Of a stretch of 36,883 nt of DNA, positions 5,412 through 29,359 are shown one piece after another. The stretch is from positions 1 through 36,883 of the forward strand of contig JANPJS010000196.1 of NCBI GenBank assembly GCA_031425655.1, in the 5' to 3' direction. Source of the DNA: Abditibacteriaceae bacterium. Its GTDB lineage: Bacteria > Armatimonadota > Abditibacteriia > Abditibacteriales > Abditibacteriaceae. The notes under the pieces are model-generated. The model ran no database searches, was not told the DNA's origin, and saw nothing but the letters and a program-made list of their open reading frames with translations. Position numbers and translations under genes: made by a program. Within the stretch, counting starts at the first letter, position 1, and each line of letters opens with the position of its first letter.

Positions 5412-6584
5412 TCATTTCGGGTCAAGTGGCGCAGCCGTATCGCTGTTCGCGGTTTTGTCACGCGCTTGCGCTTGTGCGCGGATTTCTGTCTTGGCTTGTT
5501 GCAAGCGCTCCGGCCAGAGGAACTTCGGCGCGGTCGCCGGATCGTAGCCGGCCATGTGGCCGGTGAGGCGGGAGGCGGGCTTGGTATATTTCAGAACCGT
5601 GTCGCCAAAGACCTCGCGACAGAGCGCCGCCAGCCCGGAATCGTATTCGATAAGCAACGCGCGCGTGTTCACATGATTATGGTCGTGGTCGTTCACCCGG
5701 TTGTTGTCGAACCACGATTGCACGCCTTCGGCAAAATATTCGTGACGATTGACCGAGGCGTATTTGCCCTTCCACAAGCCGGCCTTCATCGCCGCGTCGA
5801 AAGCGGCCTTCAGCCGGCGGTCGAAGGTCGCGTCCACGTTTACCAGGCCGCGCAGGTGGATGTTGTGCGCGAACTCGTGGATGAGAATGCACTCTTTTTC
5901 ATACGGATCGCCGGGGTAGCCAAGCAGGTTCTCCTCGGCGACGGAACAATACGGATCGGTTTCACTGCCGCCAAGTCCGCGTGCGCGCGCATCCCAATAA
6001 TCCTTCGGCGCCACGGTTTCAAATCCCGGCACTTTGGCCGCGCCCAACCGCGCGAACTCCGGCAGATCGGTGGTGTATTCGCCGTGCGCCATAATGCACA
6101 TCCGCGCGCCGCTTTGGATCATCGCTTTCAGCACGTCCGGGCGCTTGGCGAGCATTATTTCCACCAAGAATGCGGCTTCTTTGAGCGCGTAGGGGTTCAC
6201 TTTGGCCGAGGCGACGATGGGAAATCCATTCGCTTTTACCGTTTGCGTGTAGAACGCAGGCACGCCGCCCTGGCCCTGAGAATCGAAGCGAAAACCCTGC
6301 ACCGGAACCACGCTGGTAACCGTCGCCTTCGCGTTGCCCTCTGGCCCCACGATCTCGAAACGATGACCGAGCGTGGTGCTGATGACCGTATCCCTTCCGG
6401 GAGCGACGGAGCCATTCGGCACGCGCTCGGTGGCGGACTTGAGCCAGAGAATGTCTATGGCCTGACTGCTGCCGTTAATGATCTGCAAGCGGGGCCGCAC
6501 CGGCGCGGGCGCCTCGTCCGCCGGCAATATTTCCAGCGGCGCGAGCAGCCCCAGAGCTACAAAAAGCAACATTGCGTGTTTCAT
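5412..6584 (-). CDS. Secreted zinc metallopeptidase (HEXXH...E) with an N-terminal VHL-beta-like domain
   Basis: Signal peptide; LQIINGSSQAIDILW...VAPG...TTLGHRF (VHL-like); RGLGG, EENLL, HEFAH (5865-5879), EYFAE. Confidence 0.8.
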   Translation of the reverse strand: MKHAMLLFVALGLLAPLEILPADEAPAPVRPRLQIINGSSQAIDILWLKSATERVPNGSVAPGRDTVISTTLGHRFEIVGPEGNAKATVTSVVPVQGFRFDSQGQGGVPAFYTQTVKANGFPIVASAKVNPYALKEAAFLVEIMLAKRPDVLKAMIQSGARMCIMAHGEYTTDLPEFARLGAAKVPGFETVAPKDYWDARARGLGGSETDPYCSVAEENLLGYPGDPYEKECILIHEFAHNIHLRGLVNVDATFDRRLKAAFDAAMKAGLWKGKYASVNRHEYFAEGVQSWFDNNRVNDHDHNHVNTRALLIEYDSGLAALCREVFGDTVLKYTKPASRLTGHMAGYDPATAPKFLWPERLQQAKTEIRAQAQARDKTANSDTAAPLDPK

Positions 6585-7431: not shown

Positions 7432-7761
7432 TCAAAGGCACCGGGGCATCTCTGGACGACGATTTTTCTGGTTGATGCGGTTGATCAAACTCCAATTCCG
7501 CGACGGTTTATCAGGCGAGGCGTCGGCGGGTTCGCGGGCCGGCAAATCGTAGCGCGTGAAGGTAAGGCTTTGCGAGGCGAGCTTATCCACATGCGGCGTT
7601 TGGATGTGCGGATGGCGCATGAATCCGTAATCCGTCCAGTGGTGATCGTCGGAGATAATTATCACGATGTTCGGGGGCGCTTTAGCTGTGGGCGGCGCCT
7701 GCGCAGCGAGAAGCGTTGCCGGCGCGATTAACAAGGCTGCGAGAGCAGATTGCAATTTCAT
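7432..7761 (-). pseudogene. Truncated sulfatase (N-terminus only)
   Basis: Signal peptide plus PPNIVIIISDDHHWTDYGFMRHPHIQTPHVDKLASQSLTFTR. Similarity ends near 7550, before the CxPxR motif. Confidence 0.8.
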
Positions 7762-7784
7762 AGTCTGGATAGCCTCTCGATGCT

Positions 7785-8651
7785 TCAATTGCCATCCAAT
7801 GCAGCCAGCCAGCCCAGCGAAACTAAAAATTCATCAGCAGCCTGCAAGGTTTCGGTGCGATCCGGCGGCGCGTTGAAAAAGCCGTGGCCTTTGCCCTCGA
7901 AGAACTTCGCTTCGCAACGCGCACCTGCGACGGTCATGGCGCGCTGAAATTTCTCAACAGTCGCAACCGAAATCAATTGATCGCGCGTGCCCAGAAACAC
8001 AATCGCCGGCGGCGCGCCGGGCGCGATGTTGTGCGCGGGTGAATACTCTTTATAACGCTCTTTCACACGCTCATAACCATACTCTCCCGGCCCGTTATCG
8101 AACACAGGATTGAACAGCATTAAGGCCTGCGGCTTAGGCGAAATTGTTAAATCATCCTTCGCATCGTCCAGCCCTGCGATTAATGCTGTGCAGGCCGCTA
8201 AATGGCCGCCCGCCGAGCCGCCACCCGCCGCGATACGCTGCGGGTCAACACCCAACTCTGCCGCATGAGAACGCACCCAACGCATCGCCGATTTGGCGTC
8301 TTGAATACAAATCAGTGGCGGCTCACCGTCCTTAGCCTTGAGCAGGCGATATTGCACCTGAATGCACACCAGGCCACGCTCCGCAAAGTGCTGACTTTGC
8401 GCGTTGAACTGCGATGGCGTGCCCCCTACCCAGCCTCCGCCGTGAAAGAAGACAATCGCAGCGCGGCGATCTGTGGCTTGAGAATCCTGCGGCTTGAGAA
8501 TCCATAAACGCAGCTCCTGCTCGCCAACTTTTTTGTAAACCTGCGGCACACCGACCGGCATCAGAGTCGCTTTTGCAGGCGCGGCCTGTGTTTGTGAGAG
8601 CAGCATAAACAAGACACCGAGTATCGGCAGAAACGCCGTGACGAATTTCAT
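7785..8651 (-). CDS. Secreted alpha/beta hydrolase (HSL-like carbohydrate/acetyl esterase)
   Basis: HGGGW, GGSAGGHL (GxSxG), GTRD, GKGHGF; start overlaps the upstream sulfatase stop (ATGA). Confidence 0.9.
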   Translation of the reverse strand: MKFVTAFLPILGVLFMLLSQTQAAPAKATLMPVGVPQVYKKVGEQELRLWILKPQDSQATDRRAAIVFFHGGGWVGGTPSQFNAQSQHFAERGLVCIQVQYRLLKAKDGEPPLICIQDAKSAMRWVRSHAAELGVDPQRIAAGGGSAGGHLAACTALIAGLDDAKDDLTISPKPQALMLFNPVFDNGPGEYGYERVKERYKEYSPAHNIAPGAPPAIVFLGTRDQLISVATVEKFQRAMTVAGARCEAKFFEGKGHGFFNAPPDRTETLQAADEFLVSLGWLAALDGN

Positions 8652-13300: not shown

Positions 13301-13812
13301 TGCAGCGGGCGGGCGCTTTTGTTTTTTAACGTAAAGCGCAGCGCTAAACTTCCGTTGTCCAGCACCCAGATTCGCGTAATCTGCAAAGGACAATCGGCAG
13401 GAAGAGTTGGCGCCAAGTCCGCAGCGGCCAGAGCGCCTGCCACCGGCAATGGAGTTATAGGTTTACGCACGGTGGCAGTCGAAAACTCGCGCCATGCGCC
13501 TGTTTCGCCTTCGCGCACCCGCAGAGTAATATCGCCCAGATGATGAAAACCATTGGCCGCACGCTCAGCCAATTTATCAGCGGGCGTAAAGTCAAAACCA
13601 CCGACGCCTTTAGGCTGCAATGCCGCGACAGTCTGCGATGCCGTTGATAATTTCAGGCTGAACTGCGGCGTGTCGTATTCAGAAACACCCTGCGCCAAGC
13701 CCAGATGATCGGGCGGAGTTGGGGCTGGGCTTTGGGCCGAAGTGGGGGCCATAAAAGTGATATTGAGAACCAAGGCACTGACTGCCGTTATTCTCCGGTA
13801 TATGTTGTTCAT
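10384..13812 (-). CDS. DUF5695-family putative glycoside hydrolase fused to a C-terminal HEXXH zinc metallopeptidase domain
   Basis: DUF5695-like motifs YPFGSEMAWDSTGQEE, HWGYNGNARRYWDF, ERQIHHYGSGLN. Linker, then HELAH (10663-10677) and EYFAE in the last ~210 aa. Confidence 0.8.
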   Translation of the reverse strand: MNNIYRRITAVSALVLNITFMAPTSAQSPAPTPPDHLGLAQGVSEYDTPQFSLKLSTASQTVAALQPKGVGGFDFTPADKLAERAANGFHHLGDITLRVREGETGAWREFSTATVRKPITPLPVAGALAAADLAPTLPADCPLQITRIWVLDNGSLALRFTLKNKSARPLQIGALGIPLVFNNIITGRNLKQAHEICSFSDPYIGQDAGYLQVTRLSGKGPALVVVPERGTPFEAYLPLSEPMRPNQTFEGMFAWMPHSAAYAENEWKDATPWNTPSRALLAPGESRTYGLKFLLSPSIREIENTLAAARRPVAVGIPGYVLPQDIEGKLFLRYAARAQSLAVEPAGALSFKISKAGKGWQAVTLRGAKWGRARLTITYADGLKQSVNYYVTKPAAQAVSDLGRFLMTRQWFEKAGDPFGRSPSVMSYDREANKIVEQDSRVWISGLGDEGGSSWLTAAMKQFGQPDKEQIAKYEKFVDGVLWGGLHLSDGPNKYGVRKSLMFYEPALVPGFEYDSKLNWKSWTSWNKKHSEEIGRGYNYPHVIAAYWALYQVARNHEGLVKNHAWDWYLNQAYETIMFATSRDANGNRRVGWIELGMMEGDIFLDVLRDLKREGWSEKATALEARMKERADRWRREEYPFGSEMAWDSTGQEEVYAWCKYFGFEEKAQVSLNSILGYMPTLPHWGYNGNARRYWDFLYGGKISRIERQIHHYGSGLNAIPVLSEYREHPDDFYLLLVGYGGTMGALTNIDQDGFASAAFHSFPGSLKWDPYSGDYAQNFFGHAHNTATYIINHPDFGWQAFGGNAKTSGNRVQVQILDSFRKRVYIAPRGLWLTLDGGTFQTVEINAKTGVVRVGLSAATPNTKQARLRIEQPAKLPGIGTYRPTTKLVFEREAYTIPLHNKTTWVDLGAAPIVRGNPTAIAPSNAAVKQATHTDQEIEGWTLHIHQDLLRDSPAETGKAIELLRGQLAQINKVVPRSALTRLHRVALWFNPHHADYGAPKAEYHPSADWLREHNRNPVMAKAIEFTNIAIFERECRRMPMLALHELAHAFHDQTLGFDHPEITAAYERAKKSGSYNDVERWTGENKVRGRAYAMSDAKEYFAETSEAFFGKNDFQPFDREELQRMDLEMGVLLERLWNTG

Positions 13813-13821
13813 TTAAGGTTC

Positions 13822-16800
13822 TTATCGATTGGAGATACGACCCGTATAAAAGTCATCCAGAAGTTGATAGGCTTCCGCATCATAGGCGCGCAATCCCTCC
13901 GGGCCGCTCTCTGGTTTGGGGCCAGTCATGTTTAAATCGCCGTGCGTGCCGAAATACCACATGGTCAGTTCGGCGAAAAACTCGCTTTCATTAGAAGCAG
14001 CGTAAGAGCCTTTCCACAAACCCTTCTCCAGCGAGCTGCGATACTGTTCGCGGATTTTTTGGCGCACCGCCCCGGACATGCCTTTGCCTTGAATGTTATG
14101 CGCAAATTCGTGAACGCAAATATCACGGCCTTTGTAGCGGTCTTCCGGCAGGCGCAGCAGATTTTCTTCACCGCATGAAGTCAGCAATCCGCCCAAGCCG
14201 CGCGTGCGCTCATCTACGGTGAGCTTGCCGTCATAGATTTTCTTGCCTTTGAGATGCTGATGTTCTGGCAAATCGGACGTGACTTGATTGCGCCCGATGA
14301 TGTGTAGTTCAGCGCCCGCCTGCTTCAAATTCGCGCGCACGTCCGGCAAATGGCGCAGCATCATATCCAGGCGATGGTGAGCCTCATAAAGCGCTTTATC
14401 ATCCACGTCTTTGTGCGCCTTAATGGCAATGCCTTCGTAGTCCAGTCTCTTGCTGAAGAACTCTTTTTCCGGCGGAACGATTTGCGTTATCGGTGTCAGT
14501 TGGGCGCGGATGATACGGATGCCAAAGATGGCCGCGATTTCGTTGCCGCCCGTTGCCTCAAAGCGCACCGTCACTTTTTTCTTGCCTTGCACGCGCTCGG
14601 CGGGAATGTCGTATTCCACGTCGTAAAAACGTGCCGGAAGCTGTCGCTCCACTTCTTGCGAGGCGAGGCGTTGACCGTCCAGCAGAATGTCAAAGGTGCG
14701 CGGGCGCCATTCATCGCTGTTGTAAGTCGCCACCAACTTCATTGCTTGCCCTGCCTCTACCGGCATATCGAAGGAGAACCATTTTTTACCGCGCCGTCCG
14801 GGCCGCCCGGCAACGCGCGCCGGTTCGGTTTCTTCGCCCTGCTGATGAAAATCGCGCTCCGGCTGCATTTCGCCCGGCTGCACAAAGCTAACCGTAGCCG
14901 CTTCGAGTTGGCGCTGGCGTTCGCGTGCGGCGGCGATTTTGGCAGCTTCAAGTTTCCAACTTTCGGGTGTAAACAAATCCCAGTAAACCGCATAGGTGCG
15001 ACCGTGCAGGCGATAAAACGGCACCAGTTCTACATCGCGTTCGCGTCCCACACCCACGCTGCGGAAAACTCCGCTTTTTCCGGGCACCGCTTGAAGCCAT
15101 TCTGCTGGAAGTTGGCCCGCTGCAACGAAGACCGGAATCTGCTTTTGAATTTCTAATTGCGCCTTATCATCACCCGCTCCAAGATCACCGGCCAAGACCA
15201 GGGGGCCCCACATAATAGCGGCAAGGTTTGGATTGTCCGGCACCGCCTCAAGATGCAGCGCTTTCGGCAGCGTGAGTGCGATGCTGTCACCACTTTTCCA
15301 GATGCGATTCAGTTCGATATAGGAGCCGGGAGCGGAAGAAACCTTCACGGCTTTGCCGTTCACTTTTAACGCAAAGCCGTTTCCCGCCCACGACGGGCGT
15401 CGCAGCGACAGAGTGAATTTCTTTGGCGCAGCTAATTGAATTTTCAATGTAGCGTTTTGACCTTCGGGAAAATCCGTTTCCATCGTCAGTTGCGCGCCCT
15501 GCGCTTGCCAGTTGACAGTTGATGGCGCATATAAATTCACCCACAAACGGCCCGGCACTTGGTAGTAAATGCCGTTGCCGTGCAGCGCATGACTTTCCAT
15601 GCCGGTGCCCACGCAGCAGGTGAAGTGATTCTTCATGTCCTGATATTCGTGGCGCACCCCGCGTCCGACCGGCACCATGTAACAACTGCGTCCGGTTTCG
15701 GGGTCGAGCGAAGCCAATACATGATTGAACAGCGCGCGCTCGTGAAATTCGGCGTAGCGAATATCGGGCTTCAATGCGAACAACTCACGCGTTAGCTTCA
15801 GCATGTTGTAAACATTGCAGGACTCCGCCGTGCGCCCATCCACGCGCTCGCCCAGTTTGTCGGGTGGGCCAAAATACTCGTCTTTGCCGTGCCCGCCGGT
15901 CGCGAAACTGTGATGATGAGCCACGCGCTCCCAGAAGAATTTCGCCGCCTCGCCATCGGCGGCCTCGCCCGCATAAACATAACGCGCCAGTGAACCAACC
16001 AGCTTTGGCACCTGCGTGTTGCCGTGCAAACCGGCGAGTTTATCTTCGCGCTTTTTGAGAGGATCAAGCACCGCGTGATGCTCGAAGCGGCGCGAAAGTT
16101 TTAACCAGCGTTCATCGCCCGTATCGGCGTAAAGGTCGGCCAGCACCTCGTTCATGCCGCCAAACTCGGTGTTGAGCATCTTCTGCGTTTGTGCCTCGTC
16201 GAGTCGTGACAAGATGCCTTCGGCCCACTGGGCAAACTTGATTTCTACCAACAGCGCATCGCGGTTTCCGGTGTAACGATGGGCATCACGCAGGCCGGCG
16301 TAGATTTTGTGCAGCACATACCAGGGCGCCCACAATCCGTTTAAATCGAAGCCGCCCGACTTTATTTCACCACGCGCCACCTCGTTGAACTTTTCGCGCC
16401 CTCCGGCCAGCGCGCCCAAATAGCCGGCGCCGTTTTTGTCCTGCACTTCGTGCATCTCGCGCACTAAGTAATCGGCGCGCTCTTTAAAACGCGTGTCACC
16501 TGTGGCGGCATACATCAGGCTGACCGCCGACAGGTAATGTCCGGCGATGTGCCCGGTTAAATTCTTGCCATCACCGTCCCAACCGCCGTAAGGTGCGGCT
16601 TTGGCTTGTAGTCCCGCGCGTTGGCGAAAATAGGCCATCATGCGGTCGGGTTCGAGTGAAAGTAGATAAGCGCCATCTACATCTTGCGCGCGTTTTAGCG
16701 GCCCACCTGTCAGGCGCACAGCAGATAGAGGCAAAGGTTTGGCGGCATACGGCACTGCGTTTACAACAGGCGCAGCAACGAGTGGACTGGACATGATAAG

Positions 16801-16905
16801 AGAGTAAATGAAAGATGCTGCCAGTGCGAAAAACTGATTAGCAAGCCTTCTCACCAGCGACATCTCCGATGAAGTCATGGTATTAGAATCTTGTAAAAGG
16901 CTCAC
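13822..16905 (-). CDS. GH127/GH146-type beta-L-arabinofuranosidase fused to a C-terminal HEXXH zinc metallopeptidase domain
   Basis: GHIAGHYLSA, EFGGMNE, HGNTQVPK, ESCNVYNMLKL, FTCCVGTGMESH. C-terminal RGLGG, EENLL, HEFAH (14098-14112), EFFAE. Exact start uncertain. Confidence 0.88.
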   Translation of the reverse strand: MSLLQDSNTMTSSEMSLVRRLANQFFALAASFIYSLIMSSPLVAAPVVNAVPYAAKPLPLSAVRLTGGPLKRAQDVDGAYLLSLEPDRMMAYFRQRAGLQAKAAPYGGWDGDGKNLTGHIAGHYLSAVSLMYAATGDTRFKERADYLVREMHEVQDKNGAGYLGALAGGREKFNEVARGEIKSGGFDLNGLWAPWYVLHKIYAGLRDAHRYTGNRDALLVEIKFAQWAEGILSRLDEAQTQKMLNTEFGGMNEVLADLYADTGDERWLKLSRRFEHHAVLDPLKKREDKLAGLHGNTQVPKLVGSLARYVYAGEAADGEAAKFFWERVAHHHSFATGGHGKDEYFGPPDKLGERVDGRTAESCNVYNMLKLTRELFALKPDIRYAEFHERALFNHVLASLDPETGRSCYMVPVGRGVRHEYQDMKNHFTCCVGTGMESHALHGNGIYYQVPGRLWVNLYAPSTVNWQAQGAQLTMETDFPEGQNATLKIQLAAPKKFTLSLRRPSWAGNGFALKVNGKAVKVSSAPGSYIELNRIWKSGDSIALTLPKALHLEAVPDNPNLAAIMWGPLVLAGDLGAGDDKAQLEIQKQIPVFVAAGQLPAEWLQAVPGKSGVFRSVGVGRERDVELVPFYRLHGRTYAVYWDLFTPESWKLEAAKIAAARERQRQLEAATVSFVQPGEMQPERDFHQQGEETEPARVAGRPGRRGKKWFSFDMPVEAGQAMKLVATYNSDEWRPRTFDILLDGQRLASQEVERQLPARFYDVEYDIPAERVQGKKKVTVRFEATGGNEIAAIFGIRIIRAQLTPITQIVPPEKEFFSKRLDYEGIAIKAHKDVDDKALYEAHHRLDMMLRHLPDVRANLKQAGAELHIIGRNQVTSDLPEHQHLKGKKIYDGKLTVDERTRGLGGLLTSCGEENLLRLPEDRYKGRDICVHEFAHNIQGKGMSGAVRQKIREQYRSSLEKGLWKGSYAASNESEFFAELTMWYFGTHGDLNMTGPKPESGPEGLRAYDAEAYQLLDDFYTGRISNR

Positions 16906-19481
16906 TCTTTCCAGATTTCCAGTTCGCTCACGCCACTGCGGGCTTTGTCTTTGTGTGTAAAAACCACACGCAATTTTGAAGTGACGACTTTATCGAAGCG
17001 CACGCTGTTTTGGGCGCTGCCGGTTGGCAGAGCCGGCGTTTTTATCTGGTTGGCGGCATCGCGCCATTCGCCACCAACAAAGACCTGCACATTGTAACTT
17101 TCAGGCGGCTGCACACCGCCTCGGTCATCGTAGATGTAAAGCTCAGCGCGCGCTATTTCTTTCGGAGTCCCGAAGTCCACTTCCAGCCAGTCGGTTGGTG
17201 CCGGAGAGCCGTAACTTGTCCAGCGGTTCACAGGGTTCGGCAAGAAATTGATCTTGCCGTCAATGGCACTTTTGGGCACACCGCCGTAAACATCGTGAAA
17301 TGAAGCGGTCGCTTTGGGAAAGTCAGTTCCTGCTGCGTTGTAGGCGACGTTACCGGGCGGAGGCGCGGGCGCGCTGTAAGGCAAGGCACCATCGCCCCAG
17401 GCCTCGATTTCGGAGAGGCCGGTAAAGCCGCCCGGCGCGTGGGTGAAGGCAACGCGCAGTCTGGTAATCTCGCGCGGCGCGAATTGCACCACATTGAAGC
17501 GATGGCCCATCGGCTGAGCGGGGGCGCGTTGCTGTCCGGGAATAGCCTGCCATGCTGTGCCGCTGAAGAATTCGAGTTCGTAACTTTGCGGCGCCACGAT
17601 TTCTTTGCCGTCATCCAAAAATGCCAGTTTCACGGTGTCTATGCGGCGCGGCATACCGAAATCTATTTCAAGCCAATCGGTTTTGTTGGGTGAGGCATTT
17701 GTCGTCCAGCGATTCGGCGGATGCACGGTATACCAATAGTTGCCGTCATTCACTTTGTTGAGCGGCGTTTTGGAATTAGTGAATGAGGCCGCAAGGCGCG
17801 GGAAATAATCGCCGTCGTTGTTCACGGCATAATTGAGACGAACAGGTTTGGCCGCTTGCCGTGGCACTGCGGGCAATTTCGCGGTGATTTTGCCAAGCGT
17901 TTTACGCGAAGCGATTCTTTTGCCGTTGATTAGCACCGTCAATCCTGCGCCTTTGCCGTAGCGCTTCCCGTCTTTATCCCAGATAATGCTGAGACGTTGT
18001 CCGCGATAAGGCACATCATCGAGTGCAAACCACGGCCATTCGGCAGGAGCCAGTGGGTCAATTTCAAGCACATTATCGGCACGGGGTTTCAGACCGACAA
18101 GGCCCGTAATAAGCAGATCATTAAAGCTGCTGTGAAAGTAATGCTCGCTGTGATTGTAAGCGTCGTGAAACTCAAAGGAGCCGGTATCGGGATGGAGCGC
18201 TTCGGCGAGATAAGGCTGGCCGTTTTTGCGATGCGACTGCGAAAATATCCGCAGCAGCTTCACATAATCGGCGCGTGTGACGACTTTTTGATCGTAGTTT
18301 TGCAGCAGGTTTGCCAGGGCTTTCAGCGTTTGAGAAGTGGCAAAAGGCCACGATTGGCCACTCCACCAGCAACAACCTTTGGCCAGCAAAAACTGCGGGT
18401 CGTTGCGCTCCAGCGTCGTCGGGCCAAACGGTGCATAAAAGTATTTTTCGTCCATCAAAAACTTCCAGGCCGATTCATAACCGGCATCCGGCAGATTGAA
18501 CTGCCACGGAATATAAGCGTGTAGTTCGCGCCCGTGCGGGTCACCTGCATATTTGCCCGACTGATAAGTTAAGGTGCCTTTTTTAACGACATTGCCGTCT
18601 TTGTCTTTTTCCTCACGATGCGACATCGGGAAAAAGAACTCGCGTTTTGGATCCCAGAGCAGCTTCTGTAGATTTGTTTTCAACGCCGCCGCTTTGCCTT
18701 CATAAATTCGTGCCGTTTCCGCATCGCCCGCCAGACGCGCAATACGCGCGATGGCCAAAGCATCCGCCCACATATACGCGTTAAAACCGGGACGATAACC
18801 GGGCGCGCCACGCAAAATGTCCGTCGTCTGGCGGCTGTTGATGTTGAACTCCATGCCGTCGTCGTGACCGTTTTGCCAGAACAAGCCCACTTCGGGAACG
18901 AACTGGCGCTTCTCCCAGCCTTCGTAGTTTTTCACCATGTCGGGCAGCAGATTTTTAACAAGAGCTTCATTGGGATGCACCAAGTTCGCGGCCCAGATAC
19001 CATCGGCCAACCAGGTTCCATAGTTGCGCGGCTGCGCGCCGGGCGTGCGGAACCAGTAGCGCGCATAATCGCGGGCATAAGCGGCATCGCGCAGCCAGCG
19101 CACTTCGTAAAACTGGTGCCCCGCCGGACAGCTAATCGCGCCGTAAGCGCCGCTCCAAAAGGGCCGGTCTATGAACTCGGTGAAGCTGTAGCCGCTGTTC
19201 GGCGACCCGTAAGTCAGGTGCTTTGTGATGAGTTCCCAGCGGTAATAGTAGGTCGTGACGATGTCGGCATCCGGGCACTCGAAAAACGGGATGTTCGATT
19301 TATACCAATCGAAATCGCGGTTATCCCAAAAGGTTTGAGCATCCAGTTGCTTTTGCTTATCGAGAAGTTGCGCTTGGGTTGGCATAGTGGTGCCCAGCGC
19401 AACGGCGCCCGCCAGAGCAGCGCCCTTCAAGATTCGTCCGGCGATGCTGCCCGACCAATTGCATTTAATTCTGTTATTCAT
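16902..19481 (-). CDS. (alpha/alpha)6 glycoside hydrolase (MGH1/GH63-like fold, GH142/GH121-like) with two F5/8-type C (discoidin/CBM32-like) domains
   Basis: NIPFFECPD...YYYRW, ISCPAGH...EVRWLRD, DDGME, CWWSGQSWP, YFHSSFNDL; two WLE(I/V)DFG discoidin repeats. Start at ATG 19481 after AGGA. Confidence 0.8.
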   Translation of the reverse strand: MNNRIKCNWSGSIAGRILKGAALAGAVALGTTMPTQAQLLDKQKQLDAQTFWDNRDFDWYKSNIPFFECPDADIVTTYYYRWELITKHLTYGSPNSGYSFTEFIDRPFWSGAYGAISCPAGHQFYEVRWLRDAAYARDYARYWFRTPGAQPRNYGTWLADGIWAANLVHPNEALVKNLLPDMVKNYEGWEKRQFVPEVGLFWQNGHDDGMEFNINSRQTTDILRGAPGYRPGFNAYMWADALAIARIARLAGDAETARIYEGKAAALKTNLQKLLWDPKREFFFPMSHREEKDKDGNVVKKGTLTYQSGKYAGDPHGRELHAYIPWQFNLPDAGYESAWKFLMDEKYFYAPFGPTTLERNDPQFLLAKGCCWWSGQSWPFATSQTLKALANLLQNYDQKVVTRADYVKLLRIFSQSHRKNGQPYLAEALHPDTGSFEFHDAYNHSEHYFHSSFNDLLITGLVGLKPRADNVLEIDPLAPAEWPWFALDDVPYRGQRLSIIWDKDGKRYGKGAGLTVLINGKRIASRKTLGKITAKLPAVPRQAAKPVRLNYAVNNDGDYFPRLAASFTNSKTPLNKVNDGNYWYTVHPPNRWTTNASPNKTDWLEIDFGMPRRIDTVKLAFLDDGKEIVAPQSYELEFFSGTAWQAIPGQQRAPAQPMGHRFNVVQFAPREITRLRVAFTHAPGGFTGLSEIEAWGDGALPYSAPAPPPGNVAYNAAGTDFPKATASFHDVYGGVPKSAIDGKINFLPNPVNRWTSYGSPAPTDWLEVDFGTPKEIARAELYIYDDRGGVQPPESYNVQVFVGGEWRDAANQIKTPALPTGSAQNSVRFDKVVTSKLRVVFTHKDKARSGVSELEIWKE

Positions 19482-19519
19482 AATCACTTTCCTGCTTCCC
19501 TGCCCTGCTGCGAAAACTC

Positions 19520-22500
19520 TTATTGGACTTCGGCCCACGTCACGCGCTTTTCGCCACTCACAATCCACACGCAGCCGCGCACCGCCACATCTTTGTCTTG
19601 CCACTGTTTATCAGTGGCGCCGGCCACGGCCTGCGTCATCACTTTGATCTGTGCGCCGCCATCGCTCAGCGTGTAGAAATCAGGCGCCACAGCAGTGATT
19701 TTTCCGCTCACCTTAACTAACGTTCCTTCGTCCTGCGCTGATAGATCAACAACTTTAAAGGGTTGATAGCCAGTCTTTGCAGAAACCGTCACCGTCTCCG
19801 CGCTGGAATAAGGCGTTTCGTTGCTCTGCGCTGACAGATCGCGCATCTTGAAGCGATAAACATAGTCGCCGGCGGGCAGCGGCGGAGTTTTAAAAACAGG
19901 CTGCGAAATCCAGCCGCTATCGGGGCCGCCGCCCTGCGCGCAATGGAAGAAATACTCCACCGGCTCGCTTTCGATAATTGGGCTGTCATTCTCGCCGCGC
20001 ACGCCACGCGCCTTCATAACCAGTGTGTTATCGAGCATCGCTAACGGATAGGTCTGCCACTCGCCAATGCGATAGCGCGCTGGCGCCGAGTCATCGCGCG
20101 CTATCGCACTTTGCGGCGCCGAAATTGGGCTGGGCGCGCCGCCCGCAACGCGCGCCTGCACCGTGTAGCTTTGCCGTGCGCCTGCGGTGACTTTATCGGT
20201 AAATGTCGGGCTGCTCTGCCACGCGCCGGGCGCGGCTTTATCGCGAGCGAAGCGATATTCCACATTTGGCGCATCAACTTTGGCCGCCGTCATACGAATC
20301 GAAGTGGCGTTTAAGCCGCGCGGGGCAATTGCAAACTTCGCCGTTGCAACTTTAGGTAGCGCGGGAATCGTCACGTTGACCGGCGTAGAAGCATAAACTG
20401 CGGGGTTATTCTTGCGGCGAATTTTGCAGATATACGAGTAAGTTTTGCCCGGCTCAACAGTGCAGTCCGTCCAGCGATTGGTGCTCATCCATCCGCTGTT
20501 GATACCACTTTTGTCTATGCGGCCAAAACGATATTCTACACCTTCAAGATTGGGCGGACGTTGTGCCGACATTACCACTGCTCCATCCACCTCGCGCGGC
20601 GTCTGCAAGAACTTAGGCATTATGGCAACGGGTGATTTCGCAGGCGGCGCCTCTTCAACCGGCACGGCGTTGCGGTTTTTTAAGGCTCCGGCTAATGTAG
20701 CGATAAGCGCTGGTTCTTGCGCAAGAGAATAGACGCGGAAATCTGAAATCAAGCCTTTGAAAAAGCCGCCGCGCGCGCCGCGTCCGAGAAAGGTCACCTC
20801 GTTGTTGCTTTGCGTGTTTGGCCCCAGCACCGCTTCGGGACGCAATGTGCTTTTGGTTTCGGCCATCGGTTCCCCATCCACATAAAGCGTGGTGGTATCG
20901 CCTTTGAAAGTCACTGCGATATGCGTCCAGCGGTTCAGCGGCAACGCATTTGGCGCACTGAGCGATTCCGTTGTCACGCCATCGCTTACAGAAAATTTCA
21001 ACTTCCCGCCAGCATCCTGTGGCGTGAGCGAAAGATATTTTTTGCCGCCGTCGCCAAAGTGCAAAAGCTCCTGACCCGCGCCACCTTCCCATTTGGCCCA
21101 CAGCGCATAAGTTGTTTCTTTGAAATCGGCCACGTCGCGGCGCAGTTCCACATATTGATTGACACCGTTAAGTTGTAGCGCGCCGGGCAGCTCTTTTTCA
21201 TCGAGTTTCACGGTGCGTGGCGCGCCCATCAGATAGCCGTGCAGCACGCCGAAATGATCGCGCGCATAAATTGGGCCGGGGCGATCAAAGCGAAAGTGGC
21301 AGTAGATGCCGCCGATGTCAGGCCGGCTATCCGCATATTTCTGGTCGGTGCCCCACACCCAACCGCTAAGCAGTTGTTTGGTAATGTTGGCGCCGTTGGC
21401 ACAGTCGCCTTCTTTAATGGCGTAGCCGCTTACTTTGGCGCCGCCAAAATCGGCAACTGCGCCTTTGATGGTGGCATTGCCGGAAGCCTCACCGCGATCC
21501 AGCAGAAAGGCACGTTCCAAAACGCGAGCATTTTCCGATAGCTTCCATGAACCTTGAACCGTCGCCCAATCGCGCACTTTGGCGTTGCCAGCAACTTCGG
21601 CACGTTCGCGCACCAAAGCATGGCCACTAAGAAGAGCGTTGTCTTTTACAACAGCGTTTTCCATAGCTGCCGCAAAATCTTCAAGGCGCGCGTTGCCCTG
21701 CACCTGCGCGTTGCCTAATACCATCGCGTCTGGGCCAATATAAGCCGTGGGCGCCACTTTGGCGCTGTCCGCCACAAAACCGCCGCCGTTGGGATGTGCT
21801 TTACCTGCCACATTGGGCCGCGCCGGCTTCGATTCATAAGGCCCGGCTTTGGTATTGAGGAAAGCGACTTCATAAGCCTGCGGCGATAATGGCAAATCGG
21901 AAATCAGAGGATGTGAAAAGCCCTCGTAAGGCATGAAATCGGGCGTGGCCGCCACACAAAGATAAAGCCGATTTTCATCGCTGGAAAGCGTAATAGTGTT
22001 TACGCCGCCATTCCACGTCGCGCTGTAGCGGGACTCGCCATTGTCATTGACCGCTACCAGTGTCGCGCGCCAATCGGAGCGGCGCTGCACATCCCACAGA
22101 GGCTTGAAATCTATAGAAACCGCGTAACCGCCACCGTTTTTGCCGTTGAGCGCGATGGGCAGGACGTTGAAGCCACCCTGCATCGGCGCGTGCGCGAAAG
22201 GCACACGATACCACTTCGTATCGCCCTGACGGCGCAGCAATTCGGTGTAGGCGCGGCGATAGATTTCTGTAAAGGGGTCACTGGTGCGCGGGCTGTGTTT
22301 TTGAAAATACACCTGCCGCTCGTAATCCCACATCACATTGCGCGCCGACATTTTGCCGATAGCATCTTTGGTGGCGTTGTAAGAATCGGGCGCGTGCGCG
22401 GTGTCGAGACGCGCGACGGCATCCCAGAAATATTCAGCGCCTTTTTGCTTGTTGCCCTTAGCGCCTTTCCACAGCTTGCCGTAAAAGCCAGGGCCGTAAG

Positions 22501-23221
22501 CCGGGGTTTCGCGGAAGTATTCGTAGATCTGCCAGCAGTCGTAGTAGTTGCGGCCATGCGGCAGCGAAAGAAACGGCTGCGTGCCAACAGCGCCAGGGCC
22601 GGAATAGGAGTTGATAAATTGAAGCTGCACCCAGTTGGCGCTGGCCTCGTGCCACATCCCATCCCACGGCGTATCGTTGAAGCCGCCCATGTTGATCATC
22701 GCCGTATGCCCGTATTCATGCGGCGTGGCGCCCGACGGCGGATCGAAGGCCAGATAGGTCGGCGGGAGGGCGAAAATCGGATAACCCCAGTCATCCATCG
22801 AACCCCACGCACCACCGGCCCAGATGCCGGTGTTGTTCATCATCAGGTTGACGCGCTGCCTCTTGGCCTTCGTATCGGAGATGGCCGAGCCGCCAACTGT
22901 GGGAATACCCAGCCCGCCCTGCTCGACGGGGGCGTGATAAAGCCGCCAGACGCGCTCCAGCATTTGCAGATTGCCCTGCGCGATTTGCTCCGTCACGCGA
23001 CCGAAATCAGCGTTTTCGTTGGCGTTCTTGGCGACGCCTTTGCCCCAGAAGATGCGAAAATGCTCTGACCTTCGAAAGTTATATTGCGGATCGTCGCTTT
23101 TGAACTTGCGCTCGTTATCCTGCCAGAGAAGATTGGCATCCGGCGCATCCTGTGCATCTTGCGCCAGGACTGGTAAGCCGCTGAGCGCATTCAAAAGGGC
23201 CAACAAAACAAATCGTTTCAT
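19520..23221 (-). CDS. Svx/AvrXca-like (DUF6055) secreted metallopeptidase with left-handed beta-helix, LamG, three Fn3-like repeats and a C-terminal OB-fold-like domain
   Basis: SEHFRIFWG, HEYGH (22706-22720) then WHEASANW; HPNGGGFVADSAKVAPTAYIGPDA hexapeptide repeats; WTHIAVT..LYVDG (LamG); three VEY(R/F)F...W modules. Confidence 0.78.
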   Translation of the reverse strand: MKRFVLLALLNALSGLPVLAQDAQDAPDANLLWQDNERKFKSDDPQYNFRRSEHFRIFWGKGVAKNANENADFGRVTEQIAQGNLQMLERVWRLYHAPVEQGGLGIPTVGGSAISDTKAKRQRVNLMMNNTGIWAGGAWGSMDDWGYPIFALPPTYLAFDPPSGATPHEYGHTAMINMGGFNDTPWDGMWHEASANWVQLQFINSYSGPGAVGTQPFLSLPHGRNYYDCWQIYEYFRETPAYGPGFYGKLWKGAKGNKQKGAEYFWDAVARLDTAHAPDSYNATKDAIGKMSARNVMWDYERQVYFQKHSPRTSDPFTEIYRRAYTELLRRQGDTKWYRVPFAHAPMQGGFNVLPIALNGKNGGGYAVSIDFKPLWDVQRRSDWRATLVAVNDNGESRYSATWNGGVNTITLSSDENRLYLCVAATPDFMPYEGFSHPLISDLPLSPQAYEVAFLNTKAGPYESKPARPNVAGKAHPNGGGFVADSAKVAPTAYIGPDAMVLGNAQVQGNARLEDFAAAMENAVVKDNALLSGHALVRERAEVAGNAKVRDWATVQGSWKLSENARVLERAFLLDRGEASGNATIKGAVADFGGAKVSGYAIKEGDCANGANITKQLLSGWVWGTDQKYADSRPDIGGIYCHFRFDRPGPIYARDHFGVLHGYLMGAPRTVKLDEKELPGALQLNGVNQYVELRRDVADFKETTYALWAKWEGGAGQELLHFGDGGKKYLSLTPQDAGGKLKFSVSDGVTTESLSAPNALPLNRWTHIAVTFKGDTTTLYVDGEPMAETKSTLRPEAVLGPNTQSNNEVTFLGRGARGGFFKGLISDFRVYSLAQEPALIATLAGALKNRNAVPVEEAPPAKSPVAIMPKFLQTPREVDGAVVMSAQRPPNLEGVEYRFGRIDKSGINSGWMSTNRWTDCTVEPGKTYSYICKIRRKNNPAVYASTPVNVTIPALPKVATAKFAIAPRGLNATSIRMTAAKVDAPNVEYRFARDKAAPGAWQSSPTFTDKVTAGARQSYTVQARVAGGAPSPISAPQSAIARDDSAPARYRIGEWQTYPLAMLDNTLVMKARGVRGENDSPIIESEPVEYFFHCAQGGGPDSGWISQPVFKTPPLPAGDYVYRFKMRDLSAQSNETPYSSAETVTVSAKTGYQPFKVVDLSAQDEGTLVKVSGKITAVAPDFYTLSDGGAQIKVMTQAVAGATDKQWQDKDVAVRGCVWIVSGEKRVTWAEVQ

Positions 23222-23247: not shown

Positions 23248-25851
23248 TTACTTCTTTTTGGCCGGAATCCTTATTACATTCACCGAATAGGGCGGCAGCG
23301 TCACACTCAACTGCGGCGCGACGGCAAGAGGAGGCAGTTGCTGCGGCACGATACGGCGCGGGTTGTCGAGTGAGTTCTCGTCATCGGGCCTGGCCGAACT
23401 GATAACCGTGTGTTGCGCTGTGCCGCCCATCGTGCCGCCATCGAGTTGGATTTCGGCACGCATAGGCTGCGAGAAATAATTGGTGGCGCGCAACACCACA
23501 GTGCCGTTTTTGTGGTCATAGCCGGCGTTGGCGAAGAACTGCGGCAGATATTCGGCGCTTGCGTCCGATACCGCCTTGCCGTCGAGGAACATTTCAGCTT
23601 TGTTGCGGCTCAGCACAAGGCTGATCTCATACCAGCGCTGGTCTTCGATTTTGCCCGGCGTATTTTTGCCGCCGCGAAAGGCCGCGCCTTCGGGCTGCCC
23701 GCGATCTTGAATCGCCGAAAATGTGTTGCCCGCCGCGCCATAATTGCAAAACAGGAAGCGGTTGATGTCGGAGGCGTTGAAAAACATCAAAAAGCCCTCG
23801 GCGCCGCCCACACGACGCGCTTTGACTGTTATTCTTCCGGTCTTAAACTCCGGCGTTTTGAGAAGTAGCATCGCCGGGCTGTGACCGTTTTCGCTCTGAC
23901 GCAAAACGCCGTCCTGCACCTGCCATTTACCGATACCGGGCGTTTGACAGTTATCGAGATTCGCAAAATCGTCGCTGTAGACCAGCTTGTTTTGCTCGTC
24001 GTAAACGCGCAGTTCCTTGAACTCGGTTTGCGTGTTCCACGCGCCAAGACCGAACTGGCCGGCCATCAAGGGGCGCGTCGCGTCTGGTTTAGGCTGCACT
24101 TCGACGCCCGTCGCAAGGTTTACGTCGGGACGGGTTTCGTTGAAAAGTTTCTGCACATAATACGAAGCGTGCGCGAAGCTGCGGGCGCTGTCGAATTCAA
24201 TAAGATTCACGCCCCAATCTCGCTTGTTGACGTTCGCCAACAGCGGCGCATAAGAAGCCAGTTTCACCAGATCACCATTGCGTTCCAGCATCATCAAATA
24301 CACCGAATCATCCATCGCCGCGCTCCAATCGCCGGAGTTGTGGTGGTGCGCGTATTCCCCGACGTAGACAGTCCATGGGGTGCGCTTGTATTTGTCGAAA
24401 TAATCGAAGTTGGTGCGAATCCAACCGGATGGTTTGTAGGAGTGCTCGTCCACCATGTCGATGTTGGCATCACCGGCACGATCAATGGCGCCTTGATTGA
24501 GGCCGCTCCAAAACATACTCATTATGACGGTGATGTGCGGATATTTCGCTTTGATCGCGCTGCGAAACTTCACATAGTAGTCGCCGTAAAGCGCGGGAGG
24601 ATGTTCGTTGCCGATTTCCACATATTTCAAGGGAAATGGGCGGGGATGGCCCATTTTTGCGCGCACTGTTCCCCATTTGCTGTTGACCGGCCCAATGGCG
24701 TATTCGATGGCGTCCAGAGTTTGCTGGATCACCGGTCCGATATCGCCGAGCGGAACGTTATTTTCGGGATGCGCTGTCATGCCCGCAAAAGCAACATACA
24801 TGGCGTCGGACTTGATATCTTCGCAGAACTGCAAAAACTCGTGATATCCAAAACCGTCGGTGGAGCGGTAGCCCCAGTAACCCCACTGGCCGGGACGTTC
24901 CTTTGGCGGCGCCACCATGGTGCGCCAGTCGGGTGCCTGCTCCCATGAAAAACCTTCGACATAGCACCCTCCGGGGTAACGCACGAACGAGGGCTTGTAA
25001 TCTTCAAGATACTGCGCCAGGTCGCCGCGCAGTCCGTTCGATTGATTTTTGTAGGTCGGCCCAAACAGCGAAACCCAATCTACCTGCAATGCGCCCTTAC
25101 CACGAAACGACAAGACCAGGCGCCCTTTACCATCGGTGCCGCTGGCCCTGAGCGCCGCCTTTAAGCGCTTCCACTTCGCGCCGGGTTTGATTTTGCCTAT
25201 GTCCTGGCTGGCTAAGACCTTGCCGTTGGCACTTTCCAGCGAAGCCACGACCTGGCCCGCGAAGGTTGCGGAGCGGAGGTGAAATTCCAGGTTATAGGTA
25301 GTGCCGGCCTGCACATTGATGCCCCAGTAGCCGCTGTTGACCAGCGCCACACGTCCGGCAGCGGCATTTATCGTAAGCGCCAGGGAACGACTCGATGCTT
25401 TGTTCATCGGGTTGGCATCGGTGATGTTCATTTCGCCCTGCGCGCCGCCCTCATTTTGCAGCGACCAGCCCAGGAGCGCCCGTTGGGGATCCCATCCCAT
25501 GCCCATGTGCCAGGGCCATGGCATATCCCATTTTTCCTTAGGAACACCGGGGGGCAGCTTTTCCAACTCCATTTTGAGCGTGCCGTCGTCTTTTTTGACC
25601 AACTTTAAACCGGGCGGCAGCACGCCTTCTTCAAAGCTGCGATTCTGAATCAGTTCGCCATAAAGGCCGCCATCAAAGGCATGGCTGATCTCCTCCAGGA
25701 AAATGCCGTAAAGTGTGGGAGGAACCGGCGCTTTTTGTTGCTGCAAATTCACACGAACCGCCACCGAAGGCGCCTGTGCGAGGGCAAAATCAGGAGCGGC
25801 ATATGGTAACACCAAAGCCGTGGAGCACAGCATAAGAACAGGGAACTTCAT
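23248..25851 (-). CDS. Alpha-L-arabinofuranosidase (GH51)
   Basis: YGIFLEEISHAFDGGLYGELIQNRSFE, RYPGGC, EIGNE, DEHSY, YVGEYA, ASYAPLL; inserted beta-sandwich in the C-terminal domain. Confidence 0.93.
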   Translation of the reverse strand: MKFPVLMLCSTALVLPYAAPDFALAQAPSVAVRVNLQQQKAPVPPTLYGIFLEEISHAFDGGLYGELIQNRSFEEGVLPPGLKLVKKDDGTLKMELEKLPPGVPKEKWDMPWPWHMGMGWDPQRALLGWSLQNEGGAQGEMNITDANPMNKASSRSLALTINAAAGRVALVNSGYWGINVQAGTTYNLEFHLRSATFAGQVVASLESANGKVLASQDIGKIKPGAKWKRLKAALRASGTDGKGRLVLSFRGKGALQVDWVSLFGPTYKNQSNGLRGDLAQYLEDYKPSFVRYPGGCYVEGFSWEQAPDWRTMVAPPKERPGQWGYWGYRSTDGFGYHEFLQFCEDIKSDAMYVAFAGMTAHPENNVPLGDIGPVIQQTLDAIEYAIGPVNSKWGTVRAKMGHPRPFPLKYVEIGNEHPPALYGDYYVKFRSAIKAKYPHITVIMSMFWSGLNQGAIDRAGDANIDMVDEHSYKPSGWIRTNFDYFDKYKRTPWTVYVGEYAHHHNSGDWSAAMDDSVYLMMLERNGDLVKLASYAPLLANVNKRDWGVNLIEFDSARSFAHASYYVQKLFNETRPDVNLATGVEVQPKPDATRPLMAGQFGLGAWNTQTEFKELRVYDEQNKLVYSDDFANLDNCQTPGIGKWQVQDGVLRQSENGHSPAMLLLKTPEFKTGRITVKARRVGGAEGFLMFFNASDINRFLFCNYGAAGNTFSAIQDRGQPEGAAFRGGKNTPGKIEDQRWYEISLVLSRNKAEMFLDGKAVSDASAEYLPQFFANAGYDHKNGTVVLRATNYFSQPMRAEIQLDGGTMGGTAQHTVISSARPDDENSLDNPRRIVPQQLPPLAVAPQLSVTLPPYSVNVIRIPAKKK

Positions 25852-29200: not shown

Positions 29201-29240
29201 TTTGCTTTTTCGTGGTTAGGGGTAAAAAACCCGCTGACCC

Positions 29241-29269
29241 TTGCCAGAAACGCCAATTTTCGCTATCTT
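29241..29269 (+). promoter_or_regulatory. Sigma70-like promoter of tRNA-His
   Basis: TTGCCA-17 bp-TATCTT, ending 12 bp upstream of the tRNA. Confidence 0.65.
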
Positions 29270-29281
29270 TTCTTTGCACAT

Positions 29282-29359
29282 GGCGGATATAGCTCAGCTG
29301 GTTAGAGCGCTAGATTGTGACTCTAGAGGTCGTGGGTTCGAGTCCCATTATTCGCCCCA
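29282..29359 (+). tRNA. tRNA-His (GUG)
   Basis: Cloverleaf: G-1, acceptor GCGGATA/TATTCGC, C73, encoded CCA; anticodon arm CTAGA-TTGTGAC-TCTAG; T arm GTGGG-TTCGAGT-CCCAT. Confidence 0.97.

What the first reader, a model, noticed from the sequence alone, without database searches (positions are those of the whole stretch)
13822..14500. GH127-type enzyme with an in-frame C-terminal zinc-peptidase domain paralogous to the stand-alone peptidase
After the usual end of the GH127 accessory domain (...IFGIRIIR) the ORF continues ~225 aa. This part aligns by eye with 5412-6584: TSDLPE/TTDLPE, RGLGG, EENLL, HEFAHNI, GLWKG, E(F/Y)FAE. A glycosidase-peptidase bifunctional protein is not an architecture I recognise for this family.
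Basis: partly seen in the sequence, partly recalled or inferred. Interest (0 to 1): 0.75.

Follow-up and report, generated by a model that had tools for sequence, protein, structure and literature searches.

The report
Arabinose-stripping enzyme fused to proline-type peptidase
One gene joins an enzyme of the family that removes arabinose sugars from plant glycans to a zinc peptidase whose predicted shape is closest to proline-proline-cutting enzymes, and because its relatives sit among hydroxyproline-feeding genes it likely both strips and cuts hydroxyproline-rich cell-wall proteins such as extensin, a backbone-cutting step for which no enzyme of this family has been tested.

Summary
The fusion is real. 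ORF 13822-16905 (-) is one 1027-aa frame, bridged at the junction by contigs of three runs and fused in two genomes of the same genus and in other phyla. The glycosidase half is GH146 (closest to BT0349), not GH127 proper. The 224-aa tail has a full zincin site (HExxH, Tyr, Glu). Its confident model (pLDDT 97.7) matches Pro-Pro endopeptidases best (Z 15-17), but it fails PPEP membership tests. The stand-alone peptidase at 5412-6584 is a distant paralog (37%), not the source of a recent duplication. The family context points to hydroxyproline-rich glycoproteins: 77 of 120 long relatives are fused to arabinofuranosidases; neighbours include Xaa-Pro and DPP-IV-type peptidases, peptide transporters and 4-hydroxyproline epimerases; 101 of 383 relatives carry a VHL-type domain with the hydroxyproline-pocket residues largely kept. 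Best reading (0.6): an exported enzyme that likely removes arabinose from hydroxyproline and cuts the Hyp/Pro-rich backbone. Against: nothing is assayed, the domain also fuses to unrelated enzymes, and no 4-Hyp epimerase was found in this genome. The architecture recurs in metagenomes; my ten paper searches found no description.

The parts
13822..16905 (-). Fused gene, 1027 aa from the first GTG (probable start 17 codons later, followed by a signal-peptide-like stretch judged by eye): GH146 beta-L-arabinofuranosidase + PPEP-fold zinc peptidase
   Evidence: database copy P0005 starts at residue 18
14509..16722 (-). GH146 part: (alpha/alpha)6 catalytic domain 62-442, beta-sandwich 454-547, DUF4986 (below cut-off), DUF6805 666-799; acid/base E343, zinc/nucleophile set E361, C363, C430, C431 kept
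   Evidence: Pfam; PDB 5OPJ E 8e-157 over residues 30-799 and alignment to 8K7X; motif positions; residue roles from PMC10850190 passages
13825..14496 (-). Zinc peptidase domain ('Z'), residues ~804-1027: H932, E933, H936, Y968, E975; joined by a linker of only a few residues
10384..13812 (-). Next gene (9-nt gap): DUF5695 (54-904) followed by a second, more distant zincin ('Z2', HELAH at 1046, Y and E with the same spacing as Z)
   Evidence: contig X1 record 1 spans 10485-14169
16902..19604 (-). Upstream gene overlapping the start: six-hairpin glycosidase closest to the C-terminal part of 5MQR ('beta-L-arabinobiosidase' in PDB; recalled as BT1020 GH142 module) with two F5/8 domains
19520..23221 (-). 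DUF6055 / Svx-AvrXca-like gluzincin peptidase (HEYGH motif) with LamG domain; Svx is proposed in print to cut extensins
   Evidence: NF040510 E 2.4e-39, below cut-off; PMC10815107 passages; PMC9266454 abstract
23248..25851 (-). GH51 alpha-L-arabinofuranosidase
5412..6584 (-). Stand-alone zincin of a distant subfamily, with a degenerate N-terminal VHL-like domain (residues ~33-87)

Best explanation
The gene encodes one chain with a GH146 arabinofuranosidase domain and a zinc peptidase domain whose predicted fold is closest to Pro-Pro endopeptidases, and it likely works as an exported enzyme that removes beta-linked arabinose from hydroxyproline and cuts the Hyp/Pro-rich backbone of extensin-type glycoproteins for food. 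Shown: the fusion, both intact active-site sets, the fold match of the model, and the family's gene neighbourhoods. Inferred: export; that GH51 and the upstream beta-arabinosidase shorten the arabinan chains; that GH146 takes off the last Araf from Hyp; that Z (with the Svx-like peptidase and Z2) opens the backbone at or beside Hyp/Pro-Hyp/Pro bonds using zinc on H932/H936/E975, base E933 and oxyanion Y968; that DPP-IV-type and Xaa-Pro peptidases, a POT transporter and Hyp catabolism finish the job. The order of the two steps is open; since BT0349's jelly-roll cap is said to exclude polymers, backbone cutting may come first and hand short glycopeptides to the tethered GH146.
For: Fold: model pLDDT 97.7; Foldseek's listed ranks 1-40 are all PPEP-1/2/3 entries, best E 7.5e-7; VIA-align Z 17.1 PPEP-2, 16.7 PPEP-3, 15.6 PPEP-1, against 12.2 for lethal factor and 9.8 for 3dl1. 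Site: H-E-H-Y-E set intact in 362 of 387 aligned stretches. Fusions: 77 of 120 best long relatives carry GH146/GH127/GH51/GH43, in either order, against 2 of 120 for Z2; the GH146+Z label needs at least 4 changes on the tree. Split form: in G021, G023, G012 and G006 the GH146 ortholog and Z are separate adjacent genes. Neighbourhoods of 80 loci from nine named phyla: 44 with GH146/127 or GH51 (union counted by hand); 27 with DPP-IV-type or Xaa-Pro peptidase, POT transporter or Hyp-catabolic genes (28 minus one self-hit, L077); 5 with a proline-racemase-family gene whose best NCBIfam model is 4-hydroxyproline epimerase, about 0.25 expected. Genomes: 24 of 33 Z-positive genomes have PF05544 against 23 of 168 others; in the window's family the same 6 of 18 have both. 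VHL beta domain in 101 of 383 relatives, keeping W88 (89/107), Y98 (59/107), S111 as T/S (103/107), H115 (88/107), W117 (100/107) (pocket residues from PMC6650433 passages). GH146 members XeHypBA1 and Bll4HypBA1 act on Araf-Hyp (PMC10850190 passages). This genome has a cis-3-hydroxy-L-proline dehydratase above cut-off beside DPP-IV-like and M24-like genes on C231.
Against: No activity was measured. The PPEP S1-pocket Trp (Trp120 of PPEP-3) aligns to V/I/F/L, His145 to K/R, and the S-loop is about four residues shorter, so Pro-Pro specificity cannot be read off the fold. 43 of the 120 long relatives are fused to other things, among them kinases, amidohydrolases, GH31, sulfatase, alpha/beta hydrolases and PQQ propellers. 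36 of 80 loci show no arabinofuranosidase (some are short contigs). PF05544 was not found in G000 itself (97% complete, 327 contigs), nor close matches to G002's Hyp dehydrogenase or aldehyde dehydrogenase. Only 1 of the 5 epimerases passes the NCBIfam cut-off. The closest solved relatives of this GH146 and of the upstream gene act on pectic arabinan and RG-II (PMC10850190 passages; BT1020 recalled). The fused protein itself has no VHL domain. Genomes and loci are kin, so the enrichments overstate.
Confidence: 0.6

Rival explanations
1. Z is a glycopeptidase that needs the sugar: it recognises arabinosylated Hyp and cuts next to it, acting before the GH146 domain, rather than cutting bare Hyp/Pro bonds.
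For: The family has many near-invariant polar residues around the edge strand and active-site helix (D95, R97, R99, E110, N112, D119, R120, D125) where PPEPs have hydrophobic pockets; fusion partners are overwhelmingly arabinofuranosidases; BT0349's cap is said to exclude polymers.
Against: VHL partners keep a pocket for free hydroxyproline; many members occur in loci with only peptidases and Hyp genes. The positions of the polar residues in the cleft were not inspected in 3D.
Confidence: 0.15
2. Z is a general proline-rich-peptide (or collagen-fragment) endopeptidase, and its fusion to GH146 reflects shared operon position and frequent gene fusion in these bacteria, with no substrate hand-over; the GH146 works on pectic arabinan.
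For: Fusions to many unrelated enzymes; the sister family Z2 is fused mostly to sulfatases, esterases and DPP IV; orthologs work unfused in G021, G023, G012; GH146 BT0349 acts on arabinan oligosaccharides.
Against: Arabinofuranosidase partners are 77/120 for Z but 2/120 for Z2; repeated independent fusions in both orders; Hyp epimerase linkage.
Confidence: 0.17
3. Z is a non-catalytic peptide-binding module (like the N-terminal domain of lethal factor) that only steers partner enzymes to Pro/Hyp-rich substrates.
For: Inactive copies exist in tandem proteins, e.g. the first copy of P0001-P0004 and P0007; it is attached to many enzyme types.
Against: This copy and 362 of 387 aligned stretches keep all five catalytic residues; most members stand alone or with only a VHL domain.
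Confidence: 0.06
4. The fusion is an assembly or stop-loss artefact.
For: The genome is a 327-contig assembly; some relatives are unfused.
Against: Junction bridged by contigs of three runs; fused in G001, G002 and in 29 further database proteins of the same order.
Confidence: 0.01

Closest known systems
Pro-Pro endopeptidases PPEP-1, -2, -3 (M34 clan; PDB 5A0P, 6FPC, 9G0J)
   Same: Whole-domain fold (Z 15-17, 179-193 residues aligned, rmsd 3.1-3.6); HExxH, third-ligand Glu and oxyanion Tyr at the same spacing; conserved GxGG edge strand and TxxP motif.
   Different: 15-20% identity; S1 Trp and His145 equivalents not kept, shorter S-loop; found in Abditibacteriota, Verrucomicrobiota, Planctomycetota and others, whereas PPEPs were reported in two Firmicutes orders (PMC8610288); context is feeding on glycoproteins, not release of the cell's own adhesins.
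GH146 beta-L-arabinofuranosidase BT0349 (PDB 5OPJ); XeHypBA1, Bll3HypBA1, Bll4HypBA1
   Same: Full-length match over residues 30-799, E 8e-157; zinc/cysteine catalytic set kept; same C-terminal jelly-roll domain.
   Different: Carries an extra 224-aa peptidase; belongs to a subgroup with 60-90% identity among Abditibacteriota and Verrucomicrobiota proteins for which I found no characterisation.
Xanthomonas and Bifidobacterium Hyp-arabinoside degradation clusters (HypAA, HypBA1, HypBA2)
   Same: Set of alpha- and beta-arabinofuranosidases in one cluster; the Xanthomonas cluster has an adjacent prolyl oligopeptidase pseudogene, and the authors expected proteases to degrade the stripped protein (PMC6085000 passages).
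   Different: Those studies cover only the sugar chain; here an endopeptidase is built into the glycosidase and up to three zinc peptidases lie in the cluster.
Svx/AvrXca gluzincins
   Same: Secreted zinc peptidases proposed to cut extensins; a relative lies two genes upstream, and distant Z relatives are fused to DUF6055 in G087 and G056.
   Different: Z has a different fold match (PPEP-type) and no acyltransferase-like domain.
Anthrax lethal factor catalytic domain / Pfam ATLF (PF07737) and MtfA-type M90 (PF06167)
   Same: Same fold clan (Z about 12 and 9.8); sporadic weak Pfam hits in the family.
   Different: Weaker match than PPEPs; no toxin architecture; host is an environmental bacterium and the context is catabolic.

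Membership tests
GH146 | Closer to BT0349/Bll3HypBA1 than to GH127 enzymes | tested here: met
   E 8e-157 (5OPJ), 1e-62 (8K7X) against 9e-22 or weaker for GH127 chains
GH146 | Zn-binding Glu/Cys/Cys/Cys with Cys nucleophile and Glu acid/base | tested here: met
   E343, E361, C363, C430, C431 align with the 8K7X and 5OPJ motifs; roles from PMC10850190
GH146 | beta-L-arabinofuranosidase activity | not testable with these tools
   needs assay
GH127 (strict sense) | Groups with HypBA1/BT1003 rather than GH146 | tested here: not met
   only partial, weak matches to GH127 chains; the Pfam PF07944 hit covers both families
PPEP (Pro-Pro endopeptidase) | PPEP fold | tested here: met
   on a predicted model
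PPEP (Pro-Pro endopeptidase) | HExxH + Glu ligand + oxyanion Tyr | tested here: met
   H129/E130/H133/Y165/E172 of the domain align with PPEP residues
PPEP (Pro-Pro endopeptidase) | Sequence similarity at E <= 1e-25 to PPEP-1/2 (threshold of PMC8610288) | tested here: not met
   single sequence: no PPEP hit at E <= 10; profiles: E 0.16-0.9
PPEP (Pro-Pro endopeptidase) | S1-pocket Trp (Trp120 in PPEP-3) | tested here: not met
   aligns to V94; column holds I/V/F/L/R; sequence alignment only, numbering offset inferred
PPEP (Pro-Pro endopeptidase) | S-loop Pro/Lys-Arg/aromatic and S1' His | tested here: inconclusive
   region is gapped; family has P then F/Y nearby; His145 aligns to K/R; no residue-level superposition available
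PPEP (Pro-Pro endopeptidase) | Cleaves Pro-Pro bonds | not testable with these tools
   needs peptide-library assay
Pfam ATLF PF07737 / Peptidase_M90 PF06167 | Score above the curated cut-off | tested here: not met
   M90 16.3 bits against 26.2; no ATLF hit at E <= 0.01

The most novel reading that the evidence does not exclude
Z defines a widespread, unnamed family of hydroxyproline-directed endopeptidases of the PPEP fold: the missing backbone-cutting enzyme of bacterial extensin decay, which cleaves Hyp-Hyp (or Ara-Hyp) bonds, is aimed by VHL-type hydroxyproline readers, and here is fused to the enzyme that removes the last arabinose, making a single-chain 'extensinase'.
Probability: 0.4. 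Interest if true: 0.85.

Novelty: new variant of a known kind. Interest (0 to 1): 0.72.

Why it matters
Bacterial removal of the arabinose chains from hydroxyproline-rich glycoproteins is worked out (PMC6085000, PMC10850190), but the papers I read only expect or predict a protease for the Ser-Hyp4 backbone. This finding names a concrete, small, confidently modelled candidate family (2375 clusters at 50% identity with E <= 0.001) that has no Pfam model of its own, and extends the PPEP fold beyond Firmicutes adhesin release to nutrition. A Hyp-directed protease would also be a useful reagent for mapping plant and algal wall glycoproteins. The fusion makes the link directly testable in one protein.

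Tried and rejected
Single-sequence structure prediction failed (pLDDT 37.5) and was not used. phmmer of the single domain against PDB gave only chance hits. The wide VIA-align search could not be run, so folds that Foldseek ranks low were not examined. A maximum-likelihood tree of 228 rows did not finish; the FastTree of 143 rows left out most stand-alone and most distant members, and no one-clade test was run. One search used out-of-frame queries and was replaced. The cluster-based count of 47/80 arabinofuranosidase loci includes at least one locus pulled in by a shared esterase domain (L040), so I quote the direct count 44/80. The promoter scan gave no excess over shuffles (8 against 9.9). 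No RNA holder was listed. DUF5695 has no solved relative by sequence, so its role stays open. I first took the upstream gene for GH121; its best PDB match is 5MQR instead. A recent duplication from the stand-alone gene was rejected (37% identity, distant branch). No complex prediction was run, as an enzyme-substrate pair is not suited to it. Earlier findings by sequence, by place and by the first word search returned nothing.

Full report
Observation. The minus-strand ORF 13822-16905 is one frame of 1027 aa. Pfam places the GH127/146 catalytic domain at 62-442, a beta-sandwich at 454-547 and DUF6805 at 666-799; the last 224 aa have only a sub-threshold M90 hit. That tail (here 'Z') matches the stand-alone ORF 5412-6584 at 37% over 183 aa, E 3e-33. 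The junction is bridged by an identical contig of run X1, which may be the source sample, and by gap-free contigs of a related strain in X2 and X3, from one other study. The fusion is one open frame in G001 (91%) and G002 (84%) of the same genus. It is real.

The glycosidase half is GH146. The best solved match is 5OPJ (BT0349) over residues 30-799, E 8e-157, then 8K7X (E 1e-62); GH127 chains match only in part. The acid/base Glu and the zinc/nucleophile Glu-Cys-Cys-Cys set are kept (E343, E361, C363, C430, C431; roles from passages of PMC10850190). The same passages say that the GH146 enzymes XeHypBA1 and Bll4HypBA1 act on Araf-Hyp, that BT0349 acts on arabinan oligosaccharides, and that BT0349's jelly-roll cap appears to exclude polymers.

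The peptidase half. With a 108-row alignment the model reaches pLDDT 97.7, pTM 0.93. Foldseek's listed ranks 1-40 are all Pro-Pro endopeptidases. VIA-align, a second look at Foldseek's top 1000, gives Z 17.1 (PPEP-2), 16.7 (PPEP-3), 15.6 (PPEP-1), about 12 for lethal factor and 9.8 for 3dl1. HExxH, the oxyanion Tyr and the third ligand Glu align with PPEPs and are intact in 362 of 387 aligned stretches. It is not a PPEP by the published definition: sequence similarity is far below the 1e-25 threshold, and the S1 Trp aligns to V/I/F/L (PMC8610288 first part and passages; PMC12828418 passages and the section on substrate recognition). So it works like a PPEP in chemistry, with a different specificity pocket.

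Size and architecture of the family. A full HMMER scan found 2375 clusters at E <= 0.001 and 165 at E <= 1e-30; 1436 short relatives were found among 1906 candidates. Among the best 120 of 160 long relatives, 30 are GH146+Z (one is this protein), 5 are Z+GH146, 13 involve more distant GH146 or GH127, and 25 involve GH51; with four GH43 fusions that is 77 of 120. The other 43 include DUF5695, kinases, amidohydrolases, GH31, alpha/beta hydrolases, DPP IV and Xaa-Pro aminopeptidase. On a FastTree of 143 rows the GH146+Z label needs 7 changes, at least 4 forced by well-supported branches, and the window's stand-alone peptidase sits on a long distant branch. In G021, G023, G012 and G006 of the same family the GH146 ortholog and Z are separate neighbouring genes; in G018 they appear joined across a frameshift.

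Neighbourhoods. The best 80 of 166 GTDB loci come mostly from Verrucomicrobiota (38) and Planctomycetota (16), also Acidobacteriota, Abditibacteriota and Armatimonadota. 44 of 80 hold a GH146/127 or GH51 gene. Clustering the neighbours and naming one representative each shows recurrent DPP-IV-type S9 peptidases, M24 Xaa-Pro aminopeptidases, POT peptide transporters, and a proline-racemase-family gene with FAD oxidoreductase, DHDPS-like and aldehyde dehydrogenase genes, the usual 4-hydroxyproline pathway (recalled). 27 of 80 loci hold at least one of these, 9 of 80 a Hyp-pathway gene, 5 of 80 the racemase-family gene; all five score best as 4-hydroxyproline epimerase, one above cut-off; about 0.25 would be expected even if every genome had one. 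Across 201 genomes of the phylum, 24 of 33 with Z have PF05544 against 23 of 168 without; in the window's family the same 6 of 18 have both (kin are not independent). 24 of the 33 also have DUF6805, as do 48 of the 168 others. Of 16 loci fetched for more distant Z members, one (G195) lies inside a full Hyp operon with DPP IV, M24 and GH146, two are fused to DUF6055, one follows DPP IV and M24, one follows a POT transporter, and the rest show no such context.

VHL domains. 101 of 383 fetched relatives carry a VHL beta domain (profile match to human VHL chains E about 1e-6). The residues that form VHL's hydroxyproline pocket (PMC6650433 passages) are largely kept: W88 89/107, Y98 59/107, S111 as Thr or Ser 103/107, H115 88/107, W117 100/107. 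The fused protein has none; the stand-alone paralog has a degenerate one, and a DPP-IV-like gene on C108 has an intact-looking one. Earlier notes of this scan report the same pocket on bacterial peptidases; they agree but are not independent evidence.

The window's cluster. On one strand with gaps of -84 to 47 nt lie a metallophosphoesterase, GH51, an Svx/DUF6055 peptidase, a beta-arabinosidase closest to 5MQR, GH146+Z and DUF5695+Z2; the order is kept in G002, with one extra gene. Svx is a gluzincin predicted to cut extensins (PMC9266454 abstract; PMC10815107 passages). Z2 is a separate PPEP/ATLF-like subfamily (hhalign 88%), fused elsewhere mostly to sulfatases, esterases and DPP IV; none of its best 120 long relatives has DUF5695 and only 2 have an arabinofuranosidase-type partner.

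Against. No function is measured. The genome shows no PF05544 and no close match to G002's Hyp dehydrogenase and aldehyde dehydrogenase, though it has a cis-3-hydroxy-L-proline dehydratase above cut-off beside DHDPS-like, DPP-IV-like and M24-like genes; the assembly is 97% complete in 327 contigs. The glycosidases could serve pectic arabinan. The domain also fuses with unrelated enzymes.

Mechanism and odds. Most likely an exported two-function enzyme for hydroxyproline-rich glycoproteins: arabinose removal from Hyp plus backbone cleavage at or beside Hyp/Pro (0.6). A sugar-dependent glycopeptidase (0.15) is a close variant. A general Pro-rich or collagen peptidase fused by proximity (0.17) and a binding-only module (0.06) remain.

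Novelty. Ten full-text searches listed no paper whose title or abstract start describes this fusion or family; (GH146 + extensin + peptidase) returned none; I saw only listings for most hits (25 of 171, 20 of 53). The library lacks most subscription papers, including the 2023 Bll4HypBA1 study, and I opened no supplements, which could hold gene-cluster figures. PMC6085000 (passages) expects proteases to degrade stripped glycoproteins and notes only a prolyl oligopeptidase pseudogene; PMC4454575 (passages) lists only general peptidases. I rate it a new variant of known kinds: an unnamed PPEP-fold family in a new role and a new architecture. Interest 0.72.

Noticed in passing
window 10384-13812 (-): DUF5695 carries its own C-terminal zincin (Z2). 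Complete DUF5695 orthologs in G021 and G023 lack it, G001's is cut by the contig end, G002's is broken, and none of the best 120 Z2 relatives has DUF5695, so this second fusion looks rare. Other DUF5695 proteins carry Z plus an apparently inactive Z and a VHL-like domain (P0006, P0008-P0010).
   Followed up: partly
window 3858-5408 (-): A GH5-like gene is split by one in-frame stop at 4959-4961; the two ORFs align in one frame to an intact homolog (42%) that lies next to the 4-Hyp epimerase in G002.
   Followed up: partly
window 5412-6584 (-); L115:5279-10100: In G002 the ortholog of the stand-alone peptidase follows DPP-IV-like and M24 genes; in this genome those two genes (91% and 87% identical) lie on C231 beside the 3-Hyp dehydratase.
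   Followed up: partly
G000 C108:51843-54419 (L132): DPP-IV-type peptidase with an inserted VHL-like domain that keeps W, Y, T, H, W of the hydroxyproline pocket.
   Followed up: partly
G000 C140:8218-8958 and C172:3282-6467: Two more Z2-type zincins in the genome, one stand-alone and one N-terminal in a 1062-aa frame.
   Followed up: no
window 28406-29359: A recombinase zinc-ribbon fragment lies next to tRNA-His at 29283-29359; the catabolic genes to the left may be an integrated island.
   Followed up: no
P0046, P0056, P0062, P0064, P0065: Ser/Thr protein kinase + Z + VHL proteins: possibly a sensor for Hyp peptides or an intracellular use of the module.
   Followed up: no
L018, L048, L073, L116: Tandem Z proteins with one active-looking and one degenerate copy recur near POT transporters and DPP IV.
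   Followed up: no
window 6618-7268 (-) and 7432-7788 (-): A 216-aa exported-looking protein without a Pfam match, and a short ORF that by eye resembles only the start of a sulfatase.
   Followed up: no
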